Virus record (IMG/VR): IMGVR_UViG_3300009435_000003
Source of the DNA: a virus
Direction: 5' to 3' (one strand)
Length of the DNA: 57,115 bases
The notes beneath the pieces were generated by a model, which saw only the letters and a program-made list of their open reading frames with translations, ran no database searches and was not told where the DNA came from. Positions 26,404-49,193 of the stretch are shown here, one piece after another; positions within the stretch are counted from its first letter, which is position 1; every line of letters starts with the position of its first letter. Position numbers and translations under genes: made by a program.

Positions 26404-26637
26404 ATGAGTATGTTCGATAAAACCCCACGTCACTTCAGCGTGACACAAAACAAGGCCACCGAAGCCGGAGTCATGAAGATTCAAATCGGAAAGCTTGAGC
26501 TGTCAATCACAACGCTCAACGGAATCAATGAAGCTGTGGTGTTCTCAGAGAGCGGAGACCAAGTTTCTGAGACTAAGTTCACAGATTTCAACGAGGTCAT
26601 CTCGTTATTCTGGAAGCTGGAATCACTCGACATTTAA
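26404..26637 (+). CDS. Hypothetical early protein
   Basis: 77 aa, conserved leader. Confidence 0.6.
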   Translation: MSMFDKTPRHFSVTQNKATEAGVMKIQIGKLELSITTLNGINEAVVFSESGDQVSETKFTDFNEVISLFWKLESLDI

Positions 26638-26663
26638 GTTAAACCCCCAAAAAACAATTCACC

Positions 26664-27143
26664 ATGGGATTAGATATGTACCTGACTCGTAACCACTATG
26701 TGCGGAACTGGAGTCACCGACCAGACAGAGACTACAAGGTCTCTGCGAAGATGAACAACAAGCGTGTACCCTTCCTCGGAAGCGTAGGCGAAGTGACCAG
26801 CATCCGTGAGGAGGTGCTGTGCTGGAGAAAAGCCAACGCCATCCACAAGTGGTTCGTTGACAACGTGCAGGACGGAGATGATGACTGCGGGAAATACTAC
26901 GTAGGTATCGAGCAACTACAAGAGTTGCGACACGCCTGCCTTGCCGTCATCGCATCGCCAGAGCGAGCCGAAGAACTACTACCTACGCAAAGTGGGTTCT
27001 TCTACGGGAGCACAGAGTTTGATGAGTACTACTTGGAGGACTTGCGTATGACCGCAAAGACTATCGAGAAGCTCGTGAAACAGCAAATCCAAGCCAAGGA
27101 CATGAAGCACTCGATGGACTTCGAGTACAGCTCATCTTGGTAA
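26664..27143 (+). CDS. Hypothetical protein (MGLDMYL.. / WRKANAIHKWF family seen in many phages, function unknown)
   Basis: 159 aa, conserved leader. Confidence 0.6.
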   Translation: MGLDMYLTRNHYVRNWSHRPDRDYKVSAKMNNKRVPFLGSVGEVTSIREEVLCWRKANAIHKWFVDNVQDGDDDCGKYYVGIEQLQELRHACLAVIASPERAEELLPTQSGFFYGSTEFDEYYLEDLRMTAKTIEKLVKQQIQAKDMKHSMDFEYSSSW

Positions 27144-27206
27144 TTAACATCCGTTAACAAGCGGAGCACAATAACCCAGAAAGTCTGGCGTTATAGATAG
27201 AGAAAC
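27144..27206 (+). promoter_or_regulatory. Early cassette copy I
   Basis: TTAACATCCGTTAACA-N6-GCACAATAA-N13-GCGTTATAGATAGAGAAAC, with hairpin ATAACCCAGA-aag-TCTGGcGTTAT. Confidence 0.55.
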
Positions 27207-36296: not shown

Positions 36297-36756
36297 AATC
36301 AGTGTATGTGATTGTACATTCCTCACACTCCAGTGCCGCTGCAATGGGAGGATAAACTCTTTTGTATGCTGCGGTCGAGCCACCGACAAATCCAGTGGAC
36401 GCGATGTTCTCCGTCTGGGTATTGCCAAGCAAGAGGCACCCACTAGTATCGTCCTCATCGTTGCCGCAATGAATAAGGATGTGCTTGAAGTTAGGTACAT
36501 CTAATACCTCAAGCATTCCCTTGTGCATTTCACCAAACCTTTTAGTGTATCTGTCGTGGTATCCACCCCAAGTCTTCAGCCTTAGCTTGTATGTTCCCGC
36601 AGGGATTCGGGTCTCATGCATGACCTTCTCTTTTCTATCCTCGTCCTCAAGGGTGAAGCAAAGAAACTCACGGAACTCTGTCCCGTTGCTCACATCAAAC
36701 AACAGCCCCAGCGTGTCCCGCTCTTGGCTGCTAAACCTCATTACTTCTAGTTTCAT
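36286..36756 (-). CDS. DUF5675 / YkuD-fold cell-wall enzyme (endolysin candidate)
   Basis: 156 aa. ILIHCGNDEDDTSGCLLLG matches the L,D-transpeptidase-fold H...(S/T)xGC catalytic motif. Adjacent to the holin-like gene. Confidence 0.5.
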   Translation of the reverse strand: MKLEVMRFSSQERDTLGLLFDVSNGTEFREFLCFTLEDEDRKEKVMHETRIPAGTYKLRLKTWGGYHDRYTKRFGEMHKGMLEVLDVPNFKHILIHCGNDEDDTSGCLLLGNTQTENIASTGFVGGSTAAYKRVYPPIAAALECEECTITYTDYDG

Positions 36757-39700
36757 TCTTCTACGGATTCTATGTACTGCTCCTCAACATAGAACGAAGG
36801 TCTGACGATGGCCAGATAAGAGTCAATGAATGTCTTGAACTTTTCAAACTCTTGCGGCTCCATGTCTTGACTCTTCCCTCTGAGGTAGGCGTAGTAATCT
36901 CTAGCGTTCTTAAGTTGCTTAGGTAGCTTTCGAGCCTCTCTGATGTATGACTTGTAGTCCTCTGGGTATTCATCCTTCATCACCTGCTCCGCCACCAATG
37001 GCTTGACAGAAGAGCGGAAGCTGTCAGCGGCACGCTTCTTATCAAACACAGATTCTTTGTCTTCGATGACCTTCATGATTCTCTCCTCACCTATGACCTC
37101 TCCCTCAAGGTTGTTGCCATACTTTTCTGCAATTACCTCATACGCAGCGAGTGCCTCCTCGTTGGACAACCTCCTGTCTTTTGGTAGGTCATCCATTTCA
37201 CGGACAAGAACATCAATCTCTTTACTAGACAGCCCAAACATCTGACCAGCAAACAAAAATGTCTTCATGTAGTAGTGTAACTCCATTGCCTCTTTGTCTT
37301 CTGGTCTAACGAAGTACTCCGTCCCGTTGCTCGACACCACGCGGTTCGGTGGTAGCGCAAGGTTTTCCGCAACCGTTCTAGCATCGTCAAGGAAGTCTCC
37401 ATACGGGCCAAGGAATCTAGTGAACCCTTGAGTTACATCCTTCGGGGCAGACTTGTAGTACATCGGAGCACCCTTGCTTAGCCTTGTCCATCTTTCGTAT
37501 CCATCATCATCACCTAAATCAAAATCACCTTCCATCATTACATCGTAGGGATAGAAGAGGAACATGTTTAAAGCACCCTTGACTTGATTGTCAAAGATTC
37601 CCATTGGCGGGAGCGGATTCGCATCGACAACCACCTGAGATAAAATGTCTCTCCATCTCGAATCTTTTGGCATCTCCTCTTCGTCGTCGTCGATAAACAT
37701 ACTGGAGATTGCAGGAATCAAAACCTTTCCGATGTAAGCAAAAAGAGTAAGCTCAGCAGCGTGCCCAAGCATAGCAATACCACCCTCTTTTTTAGCTTGC
37801 GCATCACCCTTGTAGATTCTCATTGCATCCGACGAGATGCTTCGCTTCTTGTTTACGGCGAATCTTGAGAACGGAAGAAGAATGTTTTGTGCGAGGTAGG
37901 CAATGATAGATTTCACACCTTTCTCCTGCATGTATAAATCAGCCGCCTCTCTTGGAGTAGATGCCGCTTGGTCTTTGTTCACCATTGCGTCAGCATAACT
38001 CAATGCTGTAGAGTTGGGGGTAACAGCTTCCGCGTCCCAGTCAATCTGGTCAAAGCTTTCAACGACACCTTCGGTAATTAAGGCATCACCATAGAACGTA
38101 AACCACGATGCTACAGCCGCAACCTTGTCAGTGCCCTTAAGGTTCTTCAAGCTTATATCACTCATAGTCCTGACAATCTTTTGAAGGTTGCCTTCATCAA
38201 GGCTCATCCTCCCTGTGTATGGGTCGATGTTACCTGCCTCGTAGTCCCTCTGGAATACAGGAGAGTTTTGAAGTAGTTTGTACCTACCGTCATCAAGAGC
38301 AAGCTTAGCGTCTTTGCCCGCTAGAGTCTTCAAGGAGAAGTAAACCATCTCCGATAAGGTTGTAAGCAGATATGGGATAGATTGAATTGGGTTCTTAGTC
38401 TGAAACATGACCGACGTAAGGACTGTACTCTGCTTCAGAGTTTGAATACCGAAGCTACCGAATGCCCTTACGATGACCGCATTACGAAGCAGGTTGATGG
38501 GATTGATGAATCTAAAACCAATAGCCTTGAATGTAGGCTGGAATACTGGAGGAACCTTACCAGTGTCTTGCTGCACATACAGCATGATTTTTCTCTCAAG
38601 CTCCATGCGAACTTTAGCATTCGGGATGAAGGCTTTCATTGCGTCGCTGTTCAGGACATAGCTTGAACGGACAACTGAACCAACGGTGTTGGATAATATG
38701 ATGTTGTCTCTCAGCGTCCTCTCGTTAACAGATAGAAAATCAAGACCGATTCTATTCTTACCCTTGAGTGAACGAGGATTTCTCTCGAAGCTACTTCCAG
38801 CCACCTTCTTGGTTTGAGACAGTGAACTACTTGCTAATGCATCGTTCAATGAAATCCGTAGACTAAGCATGTCATCTACATCTCTTGAGCCTGTCTCTGG
38901 AATAACCTCAAATGCCGTATAGTTATCCTCAACAACCAACTCCTTGCCAAGATATCTCTCGACGTAGTTTCTAAACGCTGGCATGAGGCTGGAGTGAATG
39001 TCCGACGTAAACTGAACCATCTCCACTACGTCCTTACGTTCCGACTCAACCCGAGCAATCATTTCTGAAAGAGTTTCAGCCTGACCAAACATGTAATTGA
39101 ATGCATCTTCAAACTCATCAATCTCTTCATTAGAGAAAGACTGCTGCTCGGAGTAGTAATCAATCGTTCTGCGCATAGAGTTTCGAAGCTCCAAGTACCA
39201 AGCCGCCTCAGCTTGGCCACGCTCACCCTCAAACTCAGGCATCTGCTTAGCCATAGAGTACAGCTGCATAATAGCTCTGTCCATTCTGGTTGTTACGCTT
39301 CCCCCATCTTCGGTAATTCTGTTAATCTCATTCTCCAACAACTCAACCACCTGACTGTGAATGAAATCCGCATTAGCAAAGTCATTGGTTAGCTGTGCCA
39401 AACCGATAGCAACCCTAAGCTTTGCGAAGGTTATCCTGTCTGTTGGAATCACATTAGACAGATAGGAGTTTACAGTATCTAGCATGCCAAAGAACGCACC
39501 CTTTCTCGCTTTCAATCCCTTACGCCTTACAAGCTGTTCGAGCTTGCTAGGCATGTCGATATTCCCCTGAATCAAAGCGTGCATGTATCCGATGCCATAT
39601 ACCGAATCATTAATGAGGTAATCGTCAAGCCTGTAATCAAGGTTGATGATGTGATGTCTCTTTAGTTTATTGAGCCTTGCTCTGAGCTTATCAAAGTCCA

Positions 39701-42700
39701 AGTCTGCCACGCTGTAGATACCAAGGATGTCCGCAATTTGCGTATCCTCTAGGAGTTTCTCAATGTTGGCTACAATCCTTGGTAGTAACACGTCATTAAT
39801 AATGGCATCCTTCTGTAGCTCCTCTTTCGTTACAGCCTGTTCAGCCAGAATCTGAGTAATCAAATCAACATGAGCCGGGTTGCTCGCATTAAGGACAACA
39901 GTATCACCCGTATCTGGGTGTTGGATTGTTGGGTTGTCATCAATGAACTTAAGTATAGCTCTGCGGCTAGAAGACAATCTACTCCTCTCGTAATTCTGAA
40001 CCAGCTTCTTATACTCCTCCTCTACGGTGGTGTTGTTCTTTGCTGCACGCAGCTGAGCGCGAGCCATGAAAACAGCCTGTCTACCCAGCTCCTCCATCGC
40101 TTGATAGTTGCTAAGCTTATTGTACAAAATACCAGCCTCGGTCTTAGGGAAAGCAACACCAACATAGGCCTCAATCTCTGGCTCAAAGACAGCCTTGGCC
40201 TTGGACATTGAGCTGATGGTTGACATCAGTGTACTGACGAATCCTTCCAGCTCGTTCTGAGGAAGAAGTGCAGGGTTGATTGAGGCTAAACCGTTTGCAA
40301 TCTTCGCGTAGGTAGTTACGTTTTTTGCTGCACCGCTTCTACCCTTTGGCCTAGCCATTCTTTTGATTCGCTTCTGCAACTTCTGAGCATGCTTGATGCC
40401 GTCTAGGTATCGCTGCATCTCAGCCTTAGAGTCTCTCTTATCAAAGATGACAGAGATTTTGTCGATGAAGGTTTGCATAGCCTCCATACCCTGCTCCTCA
40501 ATCTTCTTTCCGCTGGTTTTGTGCGCCTGTCGGATGGCCTTAACCATTGCTGTAATTTGGGAGCGGGTGAAGGGAGTCTTTGAATCCTCTTTCATGCGCC
40601 CATCAATCAGTTCAATCGCCTTAGTCAAGAACTCATTAAAGGTCTTGGACTTATCCTTCAGTTGAGTGAGAGCTTTCTGTAAGTTCTTTGCCTTGGTTCC
40701 CATCTTTCGGGTCTCGGCTGCATTAGCCATAGCTACACGCATACCCTCTTTCTTCCCTTGAGAACGCCCCTGCTTATAGGCTACAGCTTTCTTGAACAGC
40801 ATATCAGCCCCCTCCTTAGAAAGACCCATGTCCATCAAGGTCTTAATAACCTCAGGCTTGGCGTAAGCAAAAGCATCTAGCTGTTGAGATTCATCCAACC
40901 CTGTAACAGGATTCTTTCTGCGCTTATCTCTGGTGATGATAGGTGACGGGTATGCCTTATCAATCATTTGAGAAACCTTCTTCAGGAAGCTACCTTGAGC
41001 TTTAGATTCTGAGTCAACGATAGCTTGAGCCTTGGGTCTAGTCTTACCAAAGCCATAAGCCGCCTGAAGCAATCCCATACTTCCCTTCCACCTGCCGTCA
41101 ATAGCCTTGCGTTCGTTTGCATCACTCCTTCGAACACCATCCTTCGTGGCATACTCACCGTCAGCAAGCTTGGCCTCCATGAAGTCCGCCCTACTGAGGC
41201 CTGTTTCGTTGTCAAGCATCACATCGTTGACATGAGGTTTGTCTGCGAACAAGTGAATCTTTGGTGTCTTTTTATTTCCGCCAGCATTTCTCATGACCAC
41301 GGCAGCAGGGAATGCCTCGTTGCCCGGCATCATGTCAACCTCAAGGTCTGAGTCAACCTCGATGGCGGCGTACACCACATCTTTAGGAACACCTTGAAGG
41401 TGACCCTCAATCATAGAGAGAACAAGTGTCCTCTTGAGCGTGCTTCCAACTTGGGATTTTGTAAGCTTGCTTACACCCGTAATTTCTTTTACTTTATCGA
41501 GAGACTTAGGGTTTTCTCTAATCACAGACATGCGCCCGAGGTTAGCGAACAGCTTATCCATGTAAGCCCTCCTTAATTCAAAGGATGTGTTGTCAGTTCT
41601 GCGAAGACTTGCCTCCACAGCCGAACGAATGTCTGCTCTCTTTCCCTTGAACTTAACCTTCTCACCGTATCTACCTTCTTTCTTTGCTGGTAGTGCATCA
41701 ATGATATCATTCAAAGAGTCTACGATAAGTTTGTCGATTTGATTTTGCGTAAGGATACCTTCCCCTACTAACCTATCCATGAGGTTAAGACCTGCCTCCA
41801 TTGTGGTGATGTTACTCTTCACCTTGTCGTCAGTTCCACTGACAAGCAAAACATGAACCTTACCGTCAGGAGACTTAGCCCTCATCTTGTTGACGGTATT
41901 CTTGAATGCGCTAGCGTCTCCCTTTTGTCCAAACGCCCATGTGTTCTTTGTTCGAACTGGATAAAACAATCCGCCTCCGCCTTCAGCTAAGACTTCTTCG
42001 TCAAGAAAAACAGTACCAACAAGCATGTGGTCTGGAGATGATACTATCACCTGACTCTCATTCAGCACCTCATCAAACACGGCATTGTGAAGTACGACAC
42101 TAGCACTCTCTTCAAACTCACCATCTTCTACCGCGTATCTGTTTGAGATGCGACCAAATTTCTGAGCCTTGTTGCTGAAAGACACCTTGGTGTCCATGCC
42201 GTCTTGACCCGGAAGGATGTGCTGAAACTTAATCGGCACGCCGTCCTTAGTGACCATGCTAAATCGTTCGTCAGTTACAGGAACTTTTTCTACGTCTTTA
42301 GCAAGGACGAGAGCACCAATCTGAATAACCTCAGATGCGCTTACAATAGGGTTGCCGTCCCTTTTGTCATAGAACCAGCTGTGACGGAAAGGGTTCATGC
42401 CCACCTGCACCCATCCCTCGTGCTTTCCTACAGGGTGGTCTGAGATGTTGTACTGGTCGCTATCCATGATGTCTACCGCACGTTGGCGGAGCTGCTGTGA
42501 ATCGTGATTCCTCCAGTCGCCAAACATGCGGGCAATAGGACTCTTGCTTTTCTCTGTTGCAATTTGAAATGCGAACTTCGGCATGGCAAGGAACTCAACA
42601 TCACTAATCAGTCCCGTTTGACCATACCCAATAGAGCCCCCCATGTTTGGAGACCTCACGTCATTCGTAGAGCCTTGGTGAATGGAAACAACCCACACAT

Positions 42701-45700
42701 CGTAACTGTCGTATGCAGGTATGTCCAAACGAAGCGCAACATAGTACCCCTCAGGGATGGTCTTGTTTACGTCAATGATTCCAGCGTTTAGCTTATTAGA
42801 TGTAAGGGCACTACCAACATCTAGTATGCTTGGAACCTCGGGAACAGTGGGGAACGGAGTAATTGGTGACTCCCTCCTGATAATCTCAATGAACTGCTCT
42901 TGATTGATTTCTTGAGCAGCGTAGCTCTTGAGAGCCTCTACGACAATAGGCTTTCTTTTTTGACGTTGACTGTCCGGAAGCAAGAGTTCCTTCTTCCTTT
43001 CCTCAAGCTCAGTCTGGGTGAGGTTAGCCTTGGTGAGAAAGTCCTCTAGTCCGGGCTTGTTTTGAAGCTCTCTAACGAATGCCTGTGGCTTACCGTTGGC
43101 AAGACCTTCTGCATAGTTGAATGCATCGTCGTATTCATCCATACGGATACCATCCCCAACCTTACCCTCACCCTTAACGAAGAACACAACGTCCGGCTTG
43201 TCTATTAGCGGTGAGTCAGCGTCATTCCAACCCTCTGGTGCAAACTCTTCATTGAAGTCAAGCCTAACGACTGGCCTCCATCCATTGTTCACGTAAAGAC
43301 TCTCAAGCTTTGTAGCAAAAGCATCGTAGAACTTACCTCCCTCCCTTGCTCTGATGGCCTGAAGAGGTGCGCTGATTGCCCTTAACTGTGAGTCAGGGTT
43401 CTTAAACAACCCACCCATGTATCCATCAGATTTAAGGTACGCCCCACCAAGCCCATCCTTAGTCATGAACAGCTTACCTCCGTCGTCTATGATTTTCTGT
43501 GCGTCCGCCTCCGATAGAGCATCGACCTGAAGAACCATCTTCATCTTGAGCTCCTTCATTCTGTCCGTGGCTTCAGCCATAGAAGCAGCCCATCGACCCG
43601 CATCAGTAACCTCTTCTACATCCCTGTTCCTAGCGTAGATACCTTGAGCCTTGGTATCCATATCCGCGAGCTCCACCATCATGGCGTTATACCCAGCACG
43701 AACAGCTGCATTACGCAAGTCTTCGGTAGCTGTTACCGCCTCTCCAGCCGCTAACTGACCAGTCATTTTTTGAATAGCTGTAACAAGGTCATCGAGCCTA
43801 GGGTCGGCTTCCGTCATGTCTACCTCAACACCCGGGATAGTATTTACGGCCTTAGCAACGAAGTCTTTGAACTGATTTACCAAACCTTTCTTTACCTCAA
43901 TGCCCACATCTCCAGTTGTAATGTCTCCAAGTAACTCAACTAAGAACTCCTCAGCAGTCATGGGGTCACCCTCCATCGCTTGAGCTTGCTTTGTCTTAAC
44001 TCCTCTTTGACCAGCAAGGAAGTTGTTGTACTTCTTCCGCAGCTCTCCAGACAGTCCCTTGTACAAAGAGACTGACAGCTGTTGTACCGCATCCTCTCCT
44101 ATAGACTCAAGAACGAGGTCGTGAAATGCCTCGTGGAAAGATGTGTTTTCCATGGCGGCTGGAGCATAGATGTGAATCTTACCCTTGCCTACCCACATTC
44201 CGCGACCAAGAGCTTCTCCCGTCGCGTTCATAAATGATGTGTCCGTCTTGTGAATTACAACGCCTTCGAACTTACCAGTCTTAGACAGTGCTTTGGCTAC
44301 AGTTACGACATTCTTAAGGGCACGCTTCATACTCACCCCAGTGCTTAGCTTTTCAACTTGGTCAATCCTATTGAATGTTACTTCATTAATAGCATCAAGA
44401 ACAGAGTCTGCGTTTTCTCCAGTAACGGTAGTAGATTCTGAGTCACCTTCGAACAGAGAGCCGTAGTCGTTGTAGTATCTGTCAATCTTAGAGATTCTAC
44501 CGCTGACACGATTGAACTCTTTATTGATGTCAAGGTCGTACTCCATGCCAAGCTCCTTCTCAAGCTTGGTCCTCTCCTCAAGCAACGCAACCATCTCTGC
44601 TTTAAACCCATCTCTTGTCTCACCCTTTTCAGTTCTCTCAAACTGTAACCCCAGTTGGATAATCTTCTTCTGGATACCCGTCAACTGAGACCAAGCCTCG
44701 TTGTTGTTTTCATGTAGGTCTTCGTAGAACTTTCTTCTGTTCCGGTTTCGAGTAGCCCTGCCCATTACAGCTGCCTCCAACTTCCTACCAATCTCTTGTC
44801 TCGTGGCTTGGTCTGGAGCTGTATCGTATTCCTTAGTGAGCTTCTCGATTTGAATAGCGTCACGCACTGAAGGCAGCGATGTTACAGCCATAGCTCCCGC
44901 GTAGATAGCACCGGGAATTTGAGCCGTAACGGAAACACCACCACCAAGAGCGATACCACCGTACACCCCGTCCTTTACGTCAGCCATCATGTCATCAAAA
45001 TCAAACTCCACGTTGGGGTTGAATGATGCACTTGTAATGTACTGAATGCCCGCAGTAACACCTTCGGTAACACCCTCCTCAATCATACCAATACCAGTTG
45101 CCTTTAGAAGACCCTTAACAAAGTTCTCCTTACCAACTTTAGAAAGCCTCCCTAATGCTCTTGAGCTAATGTTTGCAGCGACTAGGGCTGGCAACCCCTC
45201 GGCAACACCCATGATTGAGGTGTATGCGGACTTCTCCGCACCGCTCATTTCCTGAAACCACTCCTCGTCTCTTACGGCGTTGTACTGTGTGCCCATACCC
45301 ATGGCACTGGTGGCGGTAAACATACCTGCGGTCCGGCTTATTCTGACAATCTTCTTTGCCTGAGATACAGTCTTACCAGCAGCCATAAACTGTCTGGTCT
45401 TTGCAATTTGCTCAGCTCGATTCAGCCCCTTGAGTGAGGTTCTAAGCTGCGAAAGTCCTGTGCTTCTTGATGCTGCCCCTCTAGTGAGTACCCCCGCAAC
45501 GATTGCGCCACCCATCATAGGAACAGATTCACCCCCCATTCTGAGGTAATCATTAATCAAGTCGTCAAGCTCTCCATCATCCCCCTTAAGAGACAACACC
45601 TTGTCTGTTTTCGCTGCAAGTCTTTCTAACGAAATAGGAAGTTCCTTTGCAATTTCTTCAGCCTGCGCACTCCCCTCTTCACCGGCACGAATCGCCCATT

Positions 45701-46613
45701 GTGTGAACCAGTTGTCGTCCCCAAACATTGAAGCGACCGCATCGCCAAGTATGAAGTTGCCACCAGCCATGGTCTCTTTCCACGCCTTGGATACCGAACG
45801 CCCAAACCCAGCAAATGCACCACCCTCAACGACCTCTACACCGCCGATGTATTTGTCTTCGTTCAGGTCAACTGAGAGCCCGTAATTATCATACAGATAT
45901 CTCTCGTAATCACTTACTTTCTTAGGGTCTTCGAGAATGGATTGAGGTAGGTTTTCCCTAAGCTTAGCACCAGACCTAGTGGCAATGCCAGCTCCTAAGT
46001 CTTGAAGAGATTTAGACACCTGATTCTTAAGTGGAACAGGCATTAGGATGCTCTCTCCCTCAAGCTCTGGATTTCCAGTAAGGTCTCTGTAAACCTCATC
46101 AGTTACACCACCCAAAACCCTTCTATTGATTTCAAAGTCAGGGTCACCCTCTTCAATCAAGAAGTCTACAAGTTCTTTTTTCGCTGTAAACCTTTCGTCC
46201 TCGGTTGTTGATTGGTTAAATGCGTTTAGAAAATCTTGATAGCTACCTTGACTATTCTCATAGTTGACAATATCCGTAAACTTGGATACATCAAACTTTT
46301 CGTAAATCGTTTGTAGGTATGCGTTGTCAAAAGACGTGGCATAATCATTCAGGATGTCCGCCTCAAACTGCGGAACTCTTACATCATTTATCCTCGGTGC
46401 CGTAAGAAAATCCGAAAGTGCAGTGTCTTGTTCTCCACCCAGAGATGTAGGTGAACTTGAATCCAATGAATCCACCTCCGAAACCAAGGGAGATTGTGAA
46501 GTTTCTTCTTTTTTTTTTTGACTATTGTACTGGGCAATAATCGCTAGAAGTTCTGCTTCAGAAGCACCATTAGCCTGCGCTTCAGTAAGCAGTGCCTTTA
46601 ACTGTTCGTCCAT
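36753..46613 (-). CDS. Giant virion-module protein (3,286 aa): internal/ejected multidomain protein
   Basis: Sits in the position of podovirus internal core proteins. Gly/Ala-rich hydrophobic segments at aa ~360-590; HEAFH zincin motif at aa 827-831 (nt 44121-44135); long helical C-terminal half. Confidence 0.6.
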   Translation of the reverse strand: MDEQLKALLTEAQANGASEAELLAIIAQYNSQKKKEETSQSPLVSEVDSLDSSSPTSLGGEQDTALSDFLTAPRINDVRVPQFEADILNDYATSFDNAYLQTIYEKFDVSKFTDIVNYENSQGSYQDFLNAFNQSTTEDERFTAKKELVDFLIEEGDPDFEINRRVLGGVTDEVYRDLTGNPELEGESILMPVPLKNQVSKSLQDLGAGIATRSGAKLRENLPQSILEDPKKVSDYERYLYDNYGLSVDLNEDKYIGGVEVVEGGAFAGFGRSVSKAWKETMAGGNFILGDAVASMFGDDNWFTQWAIRAGEEGSAQAEEIAKELPISLERLAAKTDKVLSLKGDDGELDDLINDYLRMGGESVPMMGGAIVAGVLTRGAASRSTGLSQLRTSLKGLNRAEQIAKTRQFMAAGKTVSQAKKIVRISRTAGMFTATSAMGMGTQYNAVRDEEWFQEMSGAEKSAYTSIMGVAEGLPALVAANISSRALGRLSKVGKENFVKGLLKATGIGMIEEGVTEGVTAGIQYITSASFNPNVEFDFDDMMADVKDGVYGGIALGGGVSVTAQIPGAIYAGAMAVTSLPSVRDAIQIEKLTKEYDTAPDQATRQEIGRKLEAAVMGRATRNRNRRKFYEDLHENNNEAWSQLTGIQKKIIQLGLQFERTEKGETRDGFKAEMVALLEERTKLEKELGMEYDLDINKEFNRVSGRISKIDRYYNDYGSLFEGDSESTTVTGENADSVLDAINEVTFNRIDQVEKLSTGVSMKRALKNVVTVAKALSKTGKFEGVVIHKTDTSFMNATGEALGRGMWVGKGKIHIYAPAAMENTSFHEAFHDLVLESIGEDAVQQLSVSLYKGLSGELRKKYNNFLAGQRGVKTKQAQAMEGDPMTAEEFLVELLGDITTGDVGIEVKKGLVNQFKDFVAKAVNTIPGVEVDMTEADPRLDDLVTAIQKMTGQLAAGEAVTATEDLRNAAVRAGYNAMMVELADMDTKAQGIYARNRDVEEVTDAGRWAASMAEATDRMKELKMKMVLQVDALSEADAQKIIDDGGKLFMTKDGLGGAYLKSDGYMGGLFKNPDSQLRAISAPLQAIRAREGGKFYDAFATKLESLYVNNGWRPVVRLDFNEEFAPEGWNDADSPLIDKPDVVFFVKGEGKVGDGIRMDEYDDAFNYAEGLANGKPQAFVRELQNKPGLEDFLTKANLTQTELEERKKELLLPDSQRQKRKPIVVEALKSYAAQEINQEQFIEIIRRESPITPFPTVPEVPSILDVGSALTSNKLNAGIIDVNKTIPEGYYVALRLDIPAYDSYDVWVVSIHQGSTNDVRSPNMGGSIGYGQTGLISDVEFLAMPKFAFQIATEKSKSPIARMFGDWRNHDSQQLRQRAVDIMDSDQYNISDHPVGKHEGWVQVGMNPFRHSWFYDKRDGNPIVSASEVIQIGALVLAKDVEKVPVTDERFSMVTKDGVPIKFQHILPGQDGMDTKVSFSNKAQKFGRISNRYAVEDGEFEESASVVLHNAVFDEVLNESQVIVSSPDHMLVGTVFLDEEVLAEGGGGLFYPVRTKNTWAFGQKGDASAFKNTVNKMRAKSPDGKVHVLLVSGTDDKVKSNITTMEAGLNLMDRLVGEGILTQNQIDKLIVDSLNDIIDALPAKKEGRYGEKVKFKGKRADIRSAVEASLRRTDNTSFELRRAYMDKLFANLGRMSVIRENPKSLDKVKEITGVSKLTKSQVGSTLKRTLVLSMIEGHLQGVPKDVVYAAIEVDSDLEVDMMPGNEAFPAAVVMRNAGGNKKTPKIHLFADKPHVNDVMLDNETGLSRADFMEAKLADGEYATKDGVRRSDANERKAIDGRWKGSMGLLQAAYGFGKTRPKAQAIVDSESKAQGSFLKKVSQMIDKAYPSPIITRDKRRKNPVTGLDESQQLDAFAYAKPEVIKTLMDMGLSKEGADMLFKKAVAYKQGRSQGKKEGMRVAMANAAETRKMGTKAKNLQKALTQLKDKSKTFNEFLTKAIELIDGRMKEDSKTPFTRSQITAMVKAIRQAHKTSGKKIEEQGMEAMQTFIDKISVIFDKRDSKAEMQRYLDGIKHAQKLQKRIKRMARPKGRSGAAKNVTTYAKIANGLASINPALLPQNELEGFVSTLMSTISSMSKAKAVFEPEIEAYVGVAFPKTEAGILYNKLSNYQAMEELGRQAVFMARAQLRAAKNNTTVEEEYKKLVQNYERSRLSSSRRAILKFIDDNPTIQHPDTGDTVVLNASNPAHVDLITQILAEQAVTKEELQKDAIINDVLLPRIVANIEKLLEDTQIADILGIYSVADLDFDKLRARLNKLKRHHIINLDYRLDDYLINDSVYGIGYMHALIQGNIDMPSKLEQLVRRKGLKARKGAFFGMLDTVNSYLSNVIPTDRITFAKLRVAIGLAQLTNDFANADFIHSQVVELLENEINRITEDGGSVTTRMDRAIMQLYSMAKQMPEFEGERGQAEAAWYLELRNSMRRTIDYYSEQQSFSNEEIDEFEDAFNYMFGQAETLSEMIARVESERKDVVEMVQFTSDIHSSLMPAFRNYVERYLGKELVVEDNYTAFEVIPETGSRDVDDMLSLRISLNDALASSSLSQTKKVAGSSFERNPRSLKGKNRIGLDFLSVNERTLRDNIILSNTVGSVVRSSYVLNSDAMKAFIPNAKVRMELERKIMLYVQQDTGKVPPVFQPTFKAIGFRFINPINLLRNAVIVRAFGSFGIQTLKQSTVLTSVMFQTKNPIQSIPYLLTTLSEMVYFSLKTLAGKDAKLALDDGRYKLLQNSPVFQRDYEAGNIDPYTGRMSLDEGNLQKIVRTMSDISLKNLKGTDKVAAVASWFTFYGDALITEGVVESFDQIDWDAEAVTPNSTALSYADAMVNKDQAASTPREAADLYMQEKGVKSIIAYLAQNILLPFSRFAVNKKRSISSDAMRIYKGDAQAKKEGGIAMLGHAAELTLFAYIGKVLIPAISSMFIDDDEEEMPKDSRWRDILSQVVVDANPLPPMGIFDNQVKGALNMFLFYPYDVMMEGDFDLGDDDGYERWTRLSKGAPMYYKSAPKDVTQGFTRFLGPYGDFLDDARTVAENLALPPNRVVSSNGTEYFVRPEDKEAMELHYYMKTFLFAGQMFGLSSKEIDVLVREMDDLPKDRRLSNEEALAAYEVIAEKYGNNLEGEVIGEERIMKVIEDKESVFDKKRAADSFRSSVKPLVAEQVMKDEYPEDYKSYIREARKLPKQLKNARDYYAYLRGKSQDMEPQEFEKFKTFIDSYLAIVRPSFYVEEQYIESVEE

Positions 46614-46625
46614 GCGTCAAAAATA
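46614..46625 (-). promoter_or_regulatory. -7 box TATTTTTG + 4 nt + ATG of the giant gene
   Basis: + strand CAAAAATA at 46618-46625. Confidence 0.5.
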
Positions 46626-46629
46626 CGGA

Positions 46630-48258
46630 TTATTCCTGACCTTCCTCCTGTTGAGCTAAGAACTCACGTAGAATCACTTTTGTAGCTGCCTCCTCCAAAA
46701 TATCCCTACCAATTCTTCTACCTGTCGGCTGGTCAACAGCACGGAATTTGCTGTTAATTAGCTCAAACCTTGGGTCGAATGTAAATACAGTTTCTGTGCT
46801 TAGGTCAAGACCTTCAATATCTTGGGTAACACCCTCGATAAGTCCCGGTCCAGTAGCAATATCATAACCTATGAGCTCACCCCCCGGGCTAAGAACAACA
46901 TTATTGACAAGGGTTGTTTGAGCAGCTTCTCCATCCCCTGCCCCTACAGCAAACTTAAATTCTCTGCCCTTGACACTTGCGGGAACACGATACACACTTT
47001 GATTAGGTTTTTCTGGAACCGTGTTGTCATCCTCATCAATGTACGCTGGGATTGTCATGCTGTCTTTTACAGGGATAAGGTCTGTTAATGGCTTGTCGGT
47101 CTCTTGAGAGGCCTTAAGTCTTGCTTGTGCAGCAGCGTCAGAGCGTCTTGCCGAAAGGTCTTGAGCAAGCTGATTGTTTACCTGCACAAGGTTGAATGCC
47201 TTTGATGCGGCCTCCTCCATGTACAGCTTAACAGCCTTTCTTCTTTCAATGTACTGTCGAGATACAGCACCCATGTTCCCCATCTCTTCCTTAACCTCCT
47301 CATCAGACACATCAAATACCCACTCTCCGCTAGAGTCGAGTTTACCATTACCAATGTTTTTACCGCTGGGTAGCACAGTAAAAATTTCCTCTGCATTGTA
47401 AAGAGCAAAAGCCTCAGTAAAATCTGACTCCGTAAGCTCTGTAGTTCCGGGCTTCTGTAAATTCTTGTAGCCTGTAACAGCGATAGCCTCCATCATTTCA
47501 GTACCCCTTACGGAAAACTTAGATTGAAGGTTCGCGTCAATGTCTTCATAGATTGCCGCTTTGTTAAGTGTACCATCTGCAAACCCAAGGTCTGTAAGGT
47601 TTTGGTAGGTTGCCTCGCGAGCTGCAAGCACGTCTGTATATACAGAGTTACCAAGGTTTTCCGTCATGTATTCGGTACCCTTCCATAGGGTAGAAGGAAC
47701 AAACACGTCGCTCATGTCCGCGATGTTAGACTCTCTCCAGTTTATTTGACCGTTGCCCATCACCACCTCAAGCTGTCTAGTCGCTTCGTTCCAACTGTAG
47801 TTGGCTTTAGAGTATTCGTTGTATTTATCTAAGCTTTCTGCAATACCGCCCGATAGGTTCTTGTATTGGCCTTGTGCGATTGACAATCTAGTTTGATTAT
47901 CTAGTGCACTTTTAGCTGTAGAAATGTTCTTGAACTCAATAAACTCACCACGAAGTCTTTGATACTCGTCAATGTCTGATTGAACACCAGTTCTGTAAGC
48001 TTTTGTTGCAGCATTCTGATACTCAGTCAATAAAATCTGAGCACCATCCCTGTATTTTGATGTGATTCCAGCGGGTACAGCCTCACCGAGCGCGTCGGTA
48101 AAGCCCATGGTTTGGTTAGTCTGAGCTTTTCTTCTTTCAAACTCATCAGACATACCCTGAATGCCTTGGCTTATTCTATCTCCAATCTGAGCACCGATAC
48201 CTGTGTAGCTAATTGGTGCTGGGAGAAAACCAGTTTTAAATCTCGTTCCTTCTGCCAT
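46630..48258 (-). CDS. Internal virion protein (putative)
   Basis: 542 aa from the ATG (MAEGTRF; the track start is TTG). Position is between the nozzle-like and giant genes. Confidence 0.5.
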   Translation of the reverse strand: MAEGTRFKTGFLPAPISYTGIGAQIGDRISQGIQGMSDEFERRKAQTNQTMGFTDALGEAVPAGITSKYRDGAQILLTEYQNAATKAYRTGVQSDIDEYQRLRGEFIEFKNISTAKSALDNQTRLSIAQGQYKNLSGGIAESLDKYNEYSKANYSWNEATRQLEVVMGNGQINWRESNIADMSDVFVPSTLWKGTEYMTENLGNSVYTDVLAAREATYQNLTDLGFADGTLNKAAIYEDIDANLQSKFSVRGTEMMEAIAVTGYKNLQKPGTTELTESDFTEAFALYNAEEIFTVLPSGKNIGNGKLDSSGEWVFDVSDEEVKEEMGNMGAVSRQYIERRKAVKLYMEEAASKAFNLVQVNNQLAQDLSARRSDAAAQARLKASQETDKPLTDLIPVKDSMTIPAYIDEDDNTVPEKPNQSVYRVPASVKGREFKFAVGAGDGEAAQTTLVNNVVLSPGGELIGYDIATGPGLIEGVTQDIEGLDLSTETVFTFDPRFELINSKFRAVDQPTGRRIGRDILEEAATKVILREFLAQQEEGQE

Positions 48259-48259
48259 C

Positions 48260-49180
48260 TTAATCTGCTTTTTCAAATCTAGTTACGAGCTTTCTAACGA
48301 AGCTGTGAAGTCCTGATTTACCCTTACCTGAAAGTTTCTGTAGCCGAGTAGCATCCTCTGGAGCAATAACATACTCGCCTCCAGTAAGGGCAATACCCAT
48401 AGACTTACCATCTTCATCAACTACATACATCTCATTTTTCTCGTGGCTAAACTCACCCGGTGTTTTTTGAACCTCGCCTCCATCTTCCATTTTAGAAAGG
48501 GCAATACCGCCTACTGCGGCCTGAGCCATCCCTCCAAGGGCACCAGCAAAGCCAGCGGAACGCTGTTGTCTAGCTTGAGCAACTTGAGCCTGTGCTAATG
48601 CCTGCGCGTCGTAACCATACTCGAGGTCTCTCGTAGAGCGGGCCTCTCTTCTGCCAACTTCTTGTTGTTTTGCATCGGCCAAATTTGTAAGAGCCTGCGT
48701 TTGTAATTGTTGTTGGGTCATGGCTTCCGTTCTCATCTGAGATTGAGCGTCTCTTTGCGCCTGCATCACAGCCCCAAGACCTCTAGCCCCAAACTGACCC
48801 GCTGCCTGCGTCGTGGTGGCTAAGGAACGGTTGATGTCCTCTGTTCTCATCTGAACTAACCTTTGGTCATAGGCGTTTTTTGCAGCCTCGTAGTACTCCG
48901 AAGGCGTTGACAAAGATGGTTGAGAAGCCTTAAGCTTTCTAAGCTCTGTCTCCGCAACTCCAAGTGCCTTTTCACCTCGCTTGATTCCAGCACCCCCAGC
49001 AAAAATGTCTACAATACCACCCAAAGCAGTGGCAGCTCCAGAGCCTATCATACCCAACGCAGCCGCTGAAGGGGAGTAAGTGCTCCCGCCGCCGCCGCCG
49101 CCACTGGGGTCACCACCCCCGCCAGTGTTGTCGGGAGTTTCTGGTGGTGGAATGTTTGCTTCGTTTCCGTCTTGACTCAT
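48260..49180 (-). CDS. Internal virion protein (putative), Gly-rich with Gln/Ala coiled coil
   Basis: 306 aa; GGGGDPSGGGGGG and hydrophobic Gly/Ala stretches. Confidence 0.5.
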   Translation of the reverse strand: MSQDGNEANIPPPETPDNTGGGGDPSGGGGGGSTYSPSAAALGMIGSGAATALGGIVDIFAGGAGIKRGEKALGVAETELRKLKASQPSLSTPSEYYEAAKNAYDQRLVQMRTEDINRSLATTTQAAGQFGARGLGAVMQAQRDAQSQMRTEAMTQQQLQTQALTNLADAKQQEVGRREARSTRDLEYGYDAQALAQAQVAQARQQRSAGFAGALGGMAQAAVGGIALSKMEDGGEVQKTPGEFSHEKNEMYVVDEDGKSMGIALTGGEYVIAPEDATRLQKLSGKGKSGLHSFVRKLVTRFEKAD

Positions 49181-49193
49181 AGCTACAAATTTA
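49181..49193 (-). promoter_or_regulatory. -7 box TAAATTTG + 5 nt + ATG; the box contains the upstream TAA stop
   Basis: + strand CAAATTTA at 49186-49193. Confidence 0.45.

What the first reader, a model, noticed from the sequence alone, without database searches (positions are those of the whole stretch)
36753..46613. 3,286-aa virion-module giant protein: candidate home of the missing early-transcription activity, or a polyvalent ejected effector
This single ORF is 17% of the genome. It sits where podoviruses encode ejected internal proteins: after the adaptor, a 1,777-aa nozzle-like gene and two internal-protein-like genes. It has its own TATTTTTG-N4-ATG start. Directly visible features are Gly/Ala-rich membrane-like segments (aa ~360-590), a zincin HEAFH motif (aa 827-831, nt 44121-44135), a segment (aa ~1040-1135, GGAYLKSDGYMGGLF...LDFNEEFAPEGW) that recalls acetyltransferase-like modules of large polyvalent phage/plasmid proteins, and about 1,300 aa of helical C-terminal sequence. 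Its size and location parallel the N4 vRNAP (3,500 aa) and the crAss-like virion RNAPs, which transcribe early genes from phage-specific promoters. I could NOT find convincing polymerase motifs by eye. There is no DxDGD/NADFDGD, and the only T7-like look-alikes are weak (TDAGR at aa 1003-1007, LINDSVYG at aa 2333-2340), with no proper R-x3-K-x7-YG motif.
Basis: inference. Interest (0 to 1): 0.8.

Follow-up and report, generated by a model that had tools for sequence, protein, structure and literature searches.

The report
Giant injected multi-effector phage protein
This 3,286-residue gene of a marine Bacteroidota podovirus is most likely a "polyvalent" cargo protein, packed in the virion and shot into the host with the DNA, carrying a zinc protease, an acetyltransferase-like domain and several unknown domains; no RNA polymerase could be found in it.

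Summary
The ORF is real: 36753-46613, minus strand, 3,286 aa, 365 kDa, 17% of a closed 56,992-bp genome. It has full-length homologues down to 40% identity.

It is built from modules that are shuffled among other 2-6 kaa phage proteins carrying ART-PolyVal, LPD23/38, RadC, GNAT, ddrB-ParB and SNF2. This puts it in the phage-type polyvalent protein class of Iyer et al. 2017.
- Module A (HEAFH) is a zincin MPTase. It is remotely homologous to the C-terminus of the ΦcrAss001 virion cargo protein gp47.
- Module B is GNAT-derived.
- Module C is L5-gp82-like.
- Module D and the roughly 1,400-aa helical C-terminus have no Pfam or PDB relative.
- The C-terminal module ends at least 891 protein clusters.

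The gene follows a crAss-muzzle-like tail protein, which is the slot where crassviruses encode cargo and virion RNAP. Like those cargo proteins, it has no cysteine.

The RNAP idea is not supported. AlphaFold models of aa 1190-3286 (pLDDT 77-80) match no polymerase; the best PDB Foldseek E-value is 0.5. Sequence profiles hit no PDB chain, and tblastn found no N4-like or crAss-like phage.

A real but unexplained promoter-like cassette (7 copies) remains in the early region.

The parts
36753..46613 (-). Complete giant ORF: 3,286 aa, 365 kDa, pI 5.3, no cysteine
   Evidence: Full-length homologues at 40-97% identity on 52-60 kb contigs.
46618..46625 (-). TATTTTTG (TAnnTTTG, Bacteroidetes -7-box-like) 4 nt upstream of the ATG, inside the 16-nt gap after the upstream gene's stop codon
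   Evidence: TAnnTTTG lies within 19 nt of 6 of 33 ORF starts. Its reading as a host-type promoter is my inference from the published Bacteroidetes consensus.
45594..46613 (-). N1, aa 1-340: conserved N-terminal helix, invariant KKK (aa 33-35), and an acidic Ser-rich linker
   Evidence: Invariant columns. The same M..D...KKK..S pattern appears in the consensus of distant relatives. Not modelled structurally.
44514..45593 (-). N2, aa 341-700: Gly/Ala-rich conserved region with glycine-zipper-like segments; not classical TM helices
   Evidence: 23-25% G+A and maximum hydropathy 1.2. Found in 10 of 21 distant full-size relatives and in the elemo giant.
43614..44396 (-). Module A, aa ~740-1000: zincin-like metallopeptidase (MPTase) with H814 on the preceding strand, HEAFH at 827-831 and the AEEFLVELLGD helix at 887-897
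   Evidence: Invariant H827, E828, H831, E889, E893. Present in all 21 distant full-size relatives. Weak DUF2268/M13 hits in homologous segments. hhalign against the ΦcrAss001 gp47 C-terminus gives 84%, E=7e-6, with an identical HEAFH.
43074..43616 (-). Module B, aa ~1000-1180: GNAT-derived domain with a divergent acetyl-CoA loop (QLRAIS in place of Q/RxxGxG/A)
   Evidence: Aligns to P0037 aa 1347-1463 (E=1e-14), which Pfam assigns to Acetyltransf_1/7/10. Three fragments hit GNAT families. It is the most widespread module.
42219..43028 (-). Module C, aa ~1196-1465: beta-rich domain related to Pfam Phage_L5_gp82; motifs RLDIPAY, HQG and GMNPFRHSWFYDKRDG
   Evidence: Ten homologous fragments hit PF25735, best E=1e-7. 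Tandemly duplicated in RadC/LPD38 proteins. Also present in Roseobacter phage CRP-9 gp54. Modelled at pLDDT mostly 80-95.
41124..42194 (-). Module D, aa ~1474-1830: alpha/beta domain of unknown function (SSPDxMxVG...GGGGLFYP...SPDGK)
   Evidence: Shared with P0021, P0022, P0024, P0028, P0036-P0039, P0047 and the elemo giant. No Pfam or PDB hit. Modelled at pLDDT ~85-90.
39174..41123 (-). Mid region, aa ~1831-2480: basic (17-20% K+R in aa 1801-2200) helical region, conserved together with the C-terminal module
   Evidence: present in 18 of 21 distant full-size relatives.
36756..39173 (-). C-terminal module, aa ~2481-3286: all-helical conserved domain that always ends the protein
   Evidence: An exhaustive profile search found 891 cluster representatives at E<=1e-3 and 500 at E<=1e-30. 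Matches end a median 6 aa from the C-terminus. AlphaFold pLDDT 80, pTM 0.77. No PDB match. BFVD matches are the C-terminal pieces of giant 'large polyvalent protein' entries. No Pfam hit in 10 members.
37674..37772 (-). Most hydrophobic helix of the protein (aa 2948-2974), followed by the acidic run DDDEEE (aa 2975-2980); conserved in distant relatives
   Evidence: The consensus 'GDDEDEE' appears.
46630..49180 (-). Two upstream genes (548 aa and 306 aa), both cysteine-free with no family hits; candidate small cargo or ejection proteins
   Evidence: Their position matches ΦcrAss001 gp45/gp46 and Cellulophaga phage phi19:3 gp126/gp127. No sequence similarity was found.
49191..54524 (-). 1,777-aa tail protein with a crAss muzzle C-terminal domain; sets the genomic context
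   Evidence: PHROG 14478, E=2e-104. Pfam crAss_MUZ_C, E=1.9e-10. tblastn hits virion structural proteins of Cellulophaga Pachyviridae phages.

Best explanation
The gene encodes a phage-type polyvalent cargo protein.

**Shown.** It is a mosaic built on a constant chassis:
- a conserved N-terminus
- a Gly/Ala-rich region
- a zincin metallopeptidase
- a basic helical mid-region
- a large all-helical C-terminal module

Into this chassis are inserted exchangeable payload domains: here a GNAT-derived domain, an L5-gp82-like beta domain and an unknown alpha/beta domain. It carries no recognisable RNA polymerase.

**Inferred from context and from the published model for this class:**
- A few copies are packed into the capsid late in infection.
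- The protein is extruded partly unfolded through the muzzle-type tail, ahead of or together with the DNA. The complete lack of cysteine fits passage through the periplasm.
- The N-terminal Gly/Ala-rich and hydrophobic segments may help cross or dock at the membrane.
- Once in the cytoplasm the zincin cuts the polyprotein, or host targets, releasing the payload domains.
- The payloads then modify host proteins or nucleic acids in the first minutes of infection, before any phage gene is expressed. One possible route is acylation by the GNAT-like module, if it is still active.

The constant C-terminal module is the best candidate for the packaging/ejection function, because it is the one part that never varies and always sits at the end. 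Early transcription is most likely done by the host RNA polymerase.
For: **Module map and shuffling.** BLASTP and HMM maps show modules A-E recurring in a different order in 2.3-5.7 kaa proteins that carry ART-PolyVal, LPD23, LPD38, RadC, GNAT, SNF2-like, DUF7178, ddrB-ParB and DUF3293.

**Chassis.** All 21 distant full-size relatives detected keep the zincin and the C-terminal module. Only 1-3 of them keep modules B or C.

**Zincin.** H814, HEAFH and the downstream EE-helix are invariant. This pattern fits the phage-type MPTase clade described in PMC5512222. hhalign to ΦcrAss001 gp47, which is mass-spectrometry-verified virion cargo, gives 84%, E=7e-6.

**GNAT.** Homology is transitive, through P0037.

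**C-terminal module.**
- 891 clusters contain it.
- It always ends the protein.
- The model is confident.
- BFVD matches are the tails of 'large polyvalent protein' entries from podo-, myo- and siphovirus contigs.

**Context.**
- It is the last gene of the virion block, after a crAss-muzzle-domain tail protein and two small genes, and before a DUF5675 gene and a holin.
- A distant homologue, P0039, has the same layout.
- Cellulophaga phages have a 1,439-1,871-aa gene annotated 'virion structural protein' in this position.

**Cysteine.** The counts are 0 of 3,286 here and 0 in both upstream genes, against up to 3% in the phage's non-virion proteins. They are also 0 of 3,667 in the elemo giant and 0 in phi19:3 gp126, gp127 and gp129. 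ΦcrAss001 cargo proteins have 0-3 each.

**Host RNAP use.** TAnnTTTG is enriched just upstream of ORF starts, including this gene.
Against: - No proteomics exist for this phage, so virion packaging rests on synteny and analogy. The Cellulophaga protein in the same slot shows no sequence similarity and only a weak fold match (E=6e-3).
- The query itself reaches no Pfam, PHROG or NCBIfam threshold. Domain assignments for A, B and C are therefore transitive or motif-based.
- The GNAT acetyl-CoA loop lacks the usual glycines, so module B may be inactive or repurposed.
- Modules C and D, the mid-region and the C-terminal module have no known function.
- Zincin self-processing is a published hypothesis, not a demonstrated activity, for this class.
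- aa 1-1190 was not modelled.
- Foldseek with 1,050-residue multidomain queries can miss single-domain similarities.
Confidence: 0.7

Rival explanations
1. Virion RNA polymerase. The giant protein contains an N4-like single-subunit or crAss-like two-barrel RNAP. This is injected and transcribes the early genes from the phage-specific cassette promoters.
For: - Its size and slot parallel N4 gp50 and the crassvirus cargo RNAP genes.
- It shares the MPTase module that PMC5512222 reports in N4 vRNAP, and that I find in ΦcrAss001 gp47.
- The closed genome has no RNAP gene.
- The genome has seven copies of a cassette with an SP6/T7-like ACTATAGAA core and an upstream hairpin.
Against: - No DxDGD, and no T7-type motif set.
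- AlphaFold models of aa 1190-3286 (pLDDT 77 and 80) find no polymerase in the PDB, although, to my knowledge, it holds T7 RNAP, N4 mini-vRNAP, phi14:2 gp66 and QDE-1.
- The C-terminal 1,046 aa is almost all helix, with no palm-like sheet.
- Profile searches of the whole protein hit no PDB chain at E<=10 except noise.
- tblastn found no Schitoviridae or Crassvirales record.
- There is no similarity to ΦcrAss001 gp49 or gp50.
- aa 1-1190 is filled by other identifiable modules.
Confidence: 0.04
2. It is mainly a structural ejectosome or conduit protein. Like T7 gp15/gp16 or P22 gp7/gp16/gp20, it would form or extend the trans-envelope channel for DNA. The helical C-terminal 1,400 aa would build the tube, and the enzymatic modules would be accessory or vestigial.
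For: [quoted passage not shown]
- It has a very large helical body with a confident single architecture, pTM 0.77.
- It has a conserved hydrophobic helix plus acidic run and a Gly/Ala-rich N-terminal region.
- It has no cysteine.
- The crassvirus literature assigns channel formation to small cargo proteins next to the muzzle gene.
Against: - There is no fold or sequence match to any solved ejection protein in the PDB.
- The invariant catalytic-type residues of the zincin, and the strong conservation of modules B-D, argue for enzymatic payloads.
- Relatives carry clear effector enzymes (ART, ddrB-ParB, SNF2, RadC) on the same chassis.

This rival is not exclusive with the best explanation: the chassis may do this job.
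Confidence: 0.16
3. It is a late cytoplasmic protein that is never packaged. It could be an assembly factor, or an anti-defence or host-takeover enzyme complex that acts in the producing cell.
For: - There is no direct evidence of packaging.
- It is followed by a holin gene, so it could simply be a late gene.
- It has its own host-type -7 box.
Against: - The chassis is shared with a class whose studied members (P1 DdrB, N4 vRNAP) are packaged, as discussed in PMC5512222.
- It has a probable remote homology to the MS-verified ΦcrAss001 virion cargo protein gp47.
- Cysteine avoidance is shared with virion cargo proteins but not with this phage's replication proteins.
- Counter-defence effectors made late in infection would act too late to be useful.
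Confidence: 0.08

Closest known systems
Phage-type polyvalent proteins (Iyer, Burroughs, Anand, de Souza & Aravind 2017, J Bacteriol; PMC5512222)
   Same: - It is a giant single polypeptide in a phage virion block.
- A zincin MPTase is the constant hub, with a conserved His on the strand before HExxH.
- It contains a GNAT-family module.
- Modules are shuffled among relatives that carry ART-PolyVal, LPD23/38, ddrB-ParB, RadC and SNF2-like domains.
- The predicted role is as effectors delivered with the DNA.
   Different: - The query matches none of the Pfam models built from that study (MPTase-PolyVal, LPDs).
- Its GNAT loop is atypical.
- Modules C and D, and the ~1,400-aa helical C-terminal chassis shared by at least 891 clusters, match no Pfam model. 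I could not find them described.
ΦcrAss001 cargo proteins, especially gp47 (262 kDa, 'RNAP-associated'; Bayfield et al. 2023, PMC10172136)
   Same: - The gene order is the same: muzzle-type tail protein, then two smaller genes, then giant gene(s).
- Both are nearly cysteine-free and predominantly helical.
- gp47 ends in a zincin with the identical HEAFH motif (hhalign 84%, E=7e-6).
[quoted passage not shown]
   Different: - There is no detectable similarity outside the zincin.
- There is no counterpart of the polymerase subunits gp49 and gp50.
- This genome is half the size, and it is not a member of Crassvirales by anything tested here.
Bacteriophage N4 virion RNA polymerase gp50 (3,500 aa)
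   Same: - The size is similar.
- According to PMC5512222 it is itself a polyvalent protein with an MPTase region needed for encapsidation.
- From my knowledge of the N4 literature, its terminal regions serve packaging and injection while the middle carries the payload.
   Different: In N4 the payload is a T7-like RNAP. Here the payload is GNAT-like plus unknown domains, and no polymerase motif, sequence similarity or fold was found.
Flavobacterium phage elemo 3,667-aa 'structural protein' (MT497078, QMP85787) and Roseobacter phage CRP-9 gp54
   Same: - The elemo giant shares N2, the zincin and module D (hhalign 59-99%). It is cysteine-free and lies in a ~60-kb podovirus with the same muzzle-like protein.
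- CRP-9 gp54 shares module C (E=3e-33).
   Different: - Identity is only 22-25% over 18% of the query for elemo, whose C-terminal module barely matches.
- CRP-9 gp54 is 1,395 aa and sits right after the portal gene.
- Neither protein has been characterised.
Cellulophaga Pachyviridae phage virion structural proteins (phi46:3 gp120, phi19:3 gp129)
   Same: - They occupy the same position at the end of a syntenic virion block.
- They are annotated as virion structural proteins.
- They are cysteine-free.
   Different: They are 1,439-1,871 aa. There is no sequence similarity and only a weak BFVD fold match for phi19:3 (E=6e-3).

Membership tests
Polyvalent proteins (Iyer et al. 2017) | One large polypeptide combining several unrelated effector-type domains | tested here: met
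   There are at least five separable modules. Two have an assignable superfamily (zincin, GNAT). They recur in different orders in other giants.
Polyvalent proteins (Iyer et al. 2017) | Zincin-like MPTase hub: HExxH plus a downstream Glu helix (phage clade: conserved His on the preceding strand) | tested here: met
   H814, H827-E828-x-x-H831 and E889/E893 are invariant. The module is present in all 21 distant relatives. hhalign to the gp47 zincin gives 84%. The Pfam MPTase-PolyVal model itself did not match, and hhalign to this phage's own ArdC MPTase gave only 2%.
Polyvalent proteins (Iyer et al. 2017) | Presence of LPD (large polyvalent protein associated) domains | tested here: not met
   No LPD model hits the query. 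LPD23 and LPD38 occur only in relatives that share other modules. hhalign of the C-terminal module against LPD38 tails gave 0.7%.
Polyvalent proteins (Iyer et al. 2017) | Encoded with virion genes of a phage (or in a conjugation locus) | tested here: met
   It is the last gene of the virion block, after the muzzle-like protein. P0039 has the same layout.
Polyvalent proteins (Iyer et al. 2017) | Packaged and delivered into the host with the DNA | not testable with these tools
   This needs virion proteomics and infection assays. Only indirect support exists: synteny, the gp47 link and the absence of cysteine.
T7/N4-like single-subunit RNA polymerase | Motifs T/DxxGR, A, B (Rx3Kx6-7YG) and C in order, with the right-hand palm/fingers/thumb fold | tested here: not met
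   Only isolated look-alikes exist. TDAGR lies just before the GNAT module, and LINDSVYG lies inside a helix of the model. No PDB polymerase appears among the Foldseek hits for aa 1190-3286. Sequence searches were negative. aa 1-1190 was tested by sequence only.
Two-barrel (DPBB) RNA polymerase (crAss-like vRNAP, YonO, QDE-1) | Two double-psi beta-barrels, with the DxDGD metal site | tested here: not met
   There is no DxDGD. hmmsearch and hhalign against ΦcrAss001 gp49 and gp50 gave only noise. Foldseek was negative. Caveat: the beta-rich module C was searched only as part of a 1,051-residue model.
GNAT acetyltransferases | GNAT fold recognised by Pfam models | tested here: inconclusive
   The query does not hit directly. 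Its module B aligns at E=1e-14 to a P0037 segment that exceeds the Pfam GNAT cut-offs. Three of the fragments scanned hit GNAT models. No structure was predicted for this part.
GNAT acetyltransferases | Acetyl-CoA pyrophosphate loop Q/R-x-x-G-x-G/A | tested here: inconclusive
   Relatives have KGKGVA or KAKGVA. The query family has Q-L-(K/R)-A-(V/I)-S at the aligned position (sequences). Small residues are kept but the glycines are lost.
Pfam Phage_L5_gp82 (PF25735) | Match to the family model | tested here: inconclusive
   Ten homologous fragments match, best E=1e-7, and P0040 scores 26.8 bits against a cut-off of 27. The query segment itself does not match. The family has no known function.
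Crassvirus-type cargo proteins | Encoded directly downstream of a muzzle protein and present in virions | tested here: inconclusive
   The position is met (compared), and a zincin is shared with gp47. Presence in virions is not testable here.

The most novel reading that the evidence does not exclude
The giant cargo protein could still be what lets the seven SP6-like, hairpin-flanked cassette promoters fire immediately after injection. It would not do this through a known polymerase fold. Instead, one of its unassigned parts would act as a non-canonical polymerase, or as an injected sigma-like or RNAP-redirecting factor. The candidates are module C, module D and the basic helical mid-region. 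That would make it a new way for a phage to bring its early-transcription specificity inside the virion.
Probability: 0.05. Interest if true: 0.85.

Novelty: new member of a known kind. Interest (0 to 1): 0.42.

Why it matters
The finding removes an attractive but unsupported candidate for a third lineage of virion RNA polymerases. It places the gene instead in the polyvalent-protein class, and extends that class to marine Bacteroidota podoviruses with a crassvirus-type muzzle.

Two things are worth keeping.

1. These giants appear to share a constant chassis of conserved N-terminus, zincin and a ~1,400-aa helical C-terminus. This chassis is found in at least 891 protein clusters and has no Pfam model or solved relative. 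If it is the packaging/ejection device, it is a widespread natural vehicle for injecting exchangeable enzymes into bacteria. It would also be a handle for predicting which phage proteins are delivered.
2. The zincin link to ΦcrAss001 gp47 suggests that crassvirus 'RNAP-associated' cargo and these effector giants share ancestry.

The unexplained early-promoter cassette in a genome without any RNAP gene is a separate, testable question.

Tried and rejected
- **Family libraries on the whole protein.** Pfam, PHROGs and NCBIfam gave nothing significant.
- **DNA search.** megablast against phages found no match.
- **First module alignment.** A 60-sequence MAFFT alignment of aa 680-1830 (A3) misplaced the A and D fragments onto module B. 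I did not use it for folding. I re-cut the regions (A5, A6) and checked the placement.
- **P0085.** It looked like a free-standing C-terminal module, but it is a gene cut by a contig end.
- **Cellulophaga phi46:3 gp120 and phi19:3 gp129 as homologues.** hhalign and hmmsearch were negative.
- **LPD38 as the identity of the C-terminal module.** hhalign gave 0.7%, with only a DDEE...P.P motif aligned.
- **ΦcrAss001 gp45 and gp46 as homologues of the 306-aa and 548-aa neighbours.** BLASTP gave only noise.
- **A sigma factor or small RNAP among the other ORFs.** PHROG/Pfam scans of the larger ORFs, and my reading of the translations, found none. The 178-aa and 218-aa ORFs look like DnaA-C-type HTH proteins by eye only.
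- **Cassette motif in fetched relatives.** No exact matches.
- **Bacterial genomes.** The scan for the C-terminal module returned only one short contig of a Parvibaculum MAG, which I read as probably a mis-binned phage contig. The A6 alignment was too diverse for that tool.
- **Literature.** Searches for elemo and Cellulophaga virion proteomics and for L5 gp82 found nothing usable.
- **Failed lookup.** One context lookup (P0022) failed on the server.

Full report
**1. Observation**

The window is a closed phage genome. Its first and last 123 nt are identical, which gives 56,992 unique bp. ORF 36753-46613 on the minus strand is open for 3,286 codons. It encodes a 365-kDa acidic protein and is 17.3% of the genome.

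The 16-nt gap after the upstream stop codon contains TATTTTTG, 4 nt before the ATG.

Two points need correcting:
- The Gly/Ala-rich stretch at aa 360-590 is real but too weakly hydrophobic for classical transmembrane helices (maximum 19-residue hydropathy 1.2).
- The most hydrophobic helix is instead at aa 2956-2974, followed by DDDEEE.

The gene is under selection. Full-length homologues from 97% down to 40% identity sit on 52-60-kb metagenomic contigs.

**2. What it is**

The protein itself matches nothing in Pfam, PHROGs, NCBIfam or PDB sequences. Homology searches, however, recover distant giants of 2.3-5.7 kaa that each share only pieces of it.

Mapping those pieces defines these modules:

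| Module | Residues |
|---|---|
| N2 | 341-700 |
| A | ~740-1000 |
| B | ~1000-1180 |
| C | ~1196-1465 |
| D | ~1474-1830 |
| helical mid-region | ~1831-2480 |
| C-terminal module | ~2481-3286 |

In the relatives the order differs; B-A-D-C is common. Module C can be tandemly duplicated. The partner domains are ART-PolyVal, LPD23, LPD38, RadC, GNAT, SNF2-like, DUF7178, ddrB-ParB and DUF3293. This is the signature of the polyvalent proteins of Iyer et al. 2017 (PMC5512222).

*Module A.* It has an invariant His on the preceding strand (H814), HEAFH, and a downstream AEEFLVELLGD helix with invariant glutamates. This is the pattern that paper describes for a phage-type zincin clade. A 55-sequence profile of module A aligns to the C-terminal 200 aa of ΦcrAss001 gp47, which has the identical HEAFH, with hhalign probability 84% and E=7e-6. 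The narrower family profile aligns only the motif itself.

*Module B.* It aligns at E=1e-14 to a segment of P0037 that passes the Pfam GNAT cut-offs. The acetyl-CoA loop has lost its glycines, so activity is uncertain.

*Module C.* It is related to Pfam Phage_L5_gp82, a family of unknown function.

*Module D.* It has no relative of known function.

**3. The chassis**

An exhaustive profile search with aa 2241-3286 found 891 cluster representatives at E<=1e-3, and 500 at E<=1e-30. Ten short members have no Pfam domain there.

Among 21 distant full-size relatives that the family profile detects:
- all keep the zincin and the C-terminal module
- 18 keep the mid-region
- 10 keep N2
- only 1-3 keep B or C

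The extreme N-terminus (M-x-D ... KKK ... Ser-rich) also recurs in the consensus of 16 distant giants. The picture is a constant chassis with exchangeable inserts.

**4. Structure and the RNAP test**

Two AlphaFold2 jobs were available.

| Region | pLDDT | pTM | Features |
|---|---|---|---|
| aa 1190-2240 | 76.9 | 0.46 | modules C and D mostly above 80 |
| aa 2241-3286 | 80.1 | 0.77 | one large, almost purely helical body |

Foldseek against 350,542 PDB chains gave best E-values of 0.49 and 0.61. The top hits were only helical-repeat proteins and transporters, with no polymerase among them.

Against BFVD, the C-terminal model matched the second or third fragments of long viral proteins at E down to 4e-21. 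Those that carry names are called 'Large polyvalent protein associated domain-containing protein', LPD38, RelA/SpoT, nuclease, helicase or type I restriction enzyme. Some names place them on podo-, myo- or siphovirus contigs.

The sequence tests were also negative:
- Whole-protein, A5 and A6 profiles hit no meaningful PDB chain at E<=10.
- tblastn of aa 1-3000 against 50,697 phage records found only Flavobacterium, Roseobacter, Microbacterium and one uncultured phage. It found no N4-like or crAss-like record.
- Comparison with ΦcrAss001 gp49 and gp50 gave only noise.

The part not modelled (aa 1-1190) is taken up by the acidic linker, the Gly/Ala-rich region, the zincin and the GNAT-like module.

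There are limits. Only two models could be made, and Foldseek queries of about 1,050 residues can miss single-domain similarity, which matters most for the beta-rich module C.

**5. Context**

The gene closes the virion block. Going upstream on the same strand are:
- a 548-aa gene and a 306-aa gene without any family
- a 1,777-aa protein that belongs to virion-structural PHROG 14478 and carries the Pfam crAss muzzle C-terminal domain
- three further genes, two in 'virion structural protein' PHROGs and one in a PHROG of unknown function

Downstream are a DUF5675 gene and a holin.

Three comparisons bear on this slot:
- The order 'muzzle, two smaller genes, giant' is that of ΦcrAss001 gp44-gp47. 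There gp45, gp46, gp47, gp49 and gp50 are mass-spectrometry-verified cargo, thought to be extruded partly unfolded (PMC10172136).
- The Cellulophaga Pachyviridae phages are syntenic and have a 1,439-1,871-aa 'virion structural protein' in this slot, although without sequence similarity.
- A distant homologue, P0039, lies in the same arrangement on a 60-kb contig.

A simple compositional feature unites these slot proteins: they avoid cysteine.

| Protein | Cys / length |
|---|---|
| This giant | 0 / 3,286 |
| Its two upstream neighbours | 0 |
| Elemo giant | 0 / 3,667 |
| phi19:3 gp126, gp127, gp129 | 0 |
| ΦcrAss001 gp46 | 0 / 534 |
| ΦcrAss001 gp47 | 1 / 2,341 |
| ΦcrAss001 gp49 | 1 / 1,349 |
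| ΦcrAss001 gp50 | 3 / 2,412 |

Replication and other non-virion proteins of this phage reach up to about 3%. I read this as adaptation to unfolded passage through the tail and periplasm. That is inference.

**6. Mechanism proposed**

Shown: the mosaic architecture, the constant chassis, the zincin catalytic residues, the GNAT ancestry, the absence of a recognisable polymerase, and the cargo-type genomic slot.

Inferred:
- packaging of a few copies into the capsid
- ejection ahead of or together with the DNA
- possible membrane interaction by the Gly/Ala-rich and hydrophobic segments
- zincin-mediated self-processing or attack on host proteins
- early action of the payload domains on host defence or physiology
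- a packaging/ejection role for the C-terminal module

I put 0.7 on the overall reading: about 0.85 for class membership, about 0.7 for virion delivery, and about 0.4 for the specific processing and acylation steps.

**7. The 'missing transcription activity'**

The premise is real. Seven plus-strand copies of GCGTTnnnACTATAGAAAC lie between 22.6 and 27.2 kb, where 0.46 are expected. Each is preceded about 14 nt upstream by GCACAATAAC or a close variant (GGACAATAT in one copy). Four to five copies also have TTAACATCCGTTAACA, which can form a 5-bp hairpin. Each is followed within 45 nt by an ATG. The core resembles SP6/T7 promoters; that comparison is from my memory.

The closed genome has no RNAP gene. 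The only ORFs over 600 aa besides the giant and the muzzle-like protein are the portal and the large terminase.

Host-type TAnnTTTG boxes, however, sit 1-19 nt before six ORF starts, including this gene. About 0.2 are expected from 33 occurrences genome-wide. Host RNA polymerase clearly has entry points, and a cascade through an as yet unrecognised phage factor is the economical explanation.

I found no sigma factor by eye or by the family scans I could afford. The question stays open, but it should be separated from this gene.

**8. Verdict**

This is a well-supported new member of the polyvalent-protein class, not a virion RNA polymerase. Its interest lies in three things:
- the uncharacterised but very widespread chassis
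- the link to crassvirus cargo
- the residual promoter puzzle

Noticed in passing
window 22588-27206 (+): copies starting at 22588, 23655, 24063, 24434, 25874, 26369, 27188: There are seven copies of a promoter-like cassette in front of successive early ORFs, in a genome with no RNAP gene. Each has GCACAATAAC (or a close variant), then ~14 nt, then GCGTTnnnACTATAGAAAC. Four to five copies are also preceded by TTAACATCCGTTAACA (a potential TTAAC/ATCC/GTTAA hairpin). An ATG follows 10-45 nt downstream, often after AAAAACAATTCA. The core resembles SP6/T7 promoters. Which polymerase or factor reads it is unknown.
   Followed up: partly
window 22641-23585 (+): The first gene after the first cassette is an ArdC homologue: an anti-restriction ssDNA-binding domain plus an HELVH zincin. 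It matches PDB 6I89 at E=6e-40. Its zincin is not detectably close to module A of the giant (hhalign 2%).
   Followed up: yes
window, upstream of ORF starts at 14747, 16134, 18870, 46613, 49180, 56086 (all minus strand): TAnnTTTG, the Bacteroidetes -7 promoter box, lies only 1-19 nt before six ATGs, where about 0.2 would be expected. This suggests host-RNAP promoters that give leaderless or very short-leader mRNAs, and it points to a Bacteroidota host.
   Followed up: partly
window 1-123 and 56993-57115: The two ends are identical over 123 nt. The window is a circularly closed assembly of 56,992 bp.
   Followed up: yes
window 49191-54524 (-): The 1,777-aa tail protein carries a Pfam crAss muzzle C-terminal domain (aa 1573-1642, E=1.9e-10). 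It is related to virion structural proteins of Cellulophaga Pachyviridae, Tenacibaculum, Maribacter and Flavobacterium elemo phages. A crassvirus-type muzzle element therefore occurs in ~57-76-kb non-crass podoviruses.
   Followed up: partly
window 36753-49180 (-); L001, L004, L006, L007: Proteins in the 'cargo slot' are cysteine-free or nearly so across unrelated sequences: this phage, elemo, Cellulophaga phi19:3 and phi46:3, and ΦcrAss001 gp46, gp47, gp49 and gp50. Neighbouring tail proteins and the replication proteins are not. This may be a usable predictor of ejected proteins.
   Followed up: partly
L006 (ΦcrAss001) gp47 aa ~2100-2300: The ΦcrAss001 'putative RNA-polymerase subunit' gp47 ends in a zincin-like region with HEAFH at aa 2157-2161. 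It is homologous to module A of the giant (hhalign 84%). I did not see this domain mentioned in the passages of the crassvirus paper that I read.
   Followed up: partly
window 6072-6795 (-), inside ORF 5456-6907: There are three tandem copies of a 213-nt unit (74-75% identity, i.e. 71-aa repeats) inside a 483-aa protein that has a weak NlpC/P60 hit.
   Followed up: no
window 20308-21465 (-) and 16580-17140 (-): One ORF is a secreted-looking M43 (pappalysin-type) metallopeptidase with 12 cysteines and a weak dockerin hit. The other is a 186-aa ORF with a lytic-transglycosylase-like GLAQIMPGT motif (by eye only).
   Followed up: no
L008 (NZQM01000100.1, 'MAG: Parvibaculum sp.'): A 10.8-kb contig binned into an alphaproteobacterial MAG encodes a 47%-identical homologue of the C-terminal 1,040 aa. 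It is probably a phage contig that was mis-binned.
   Followed up: no
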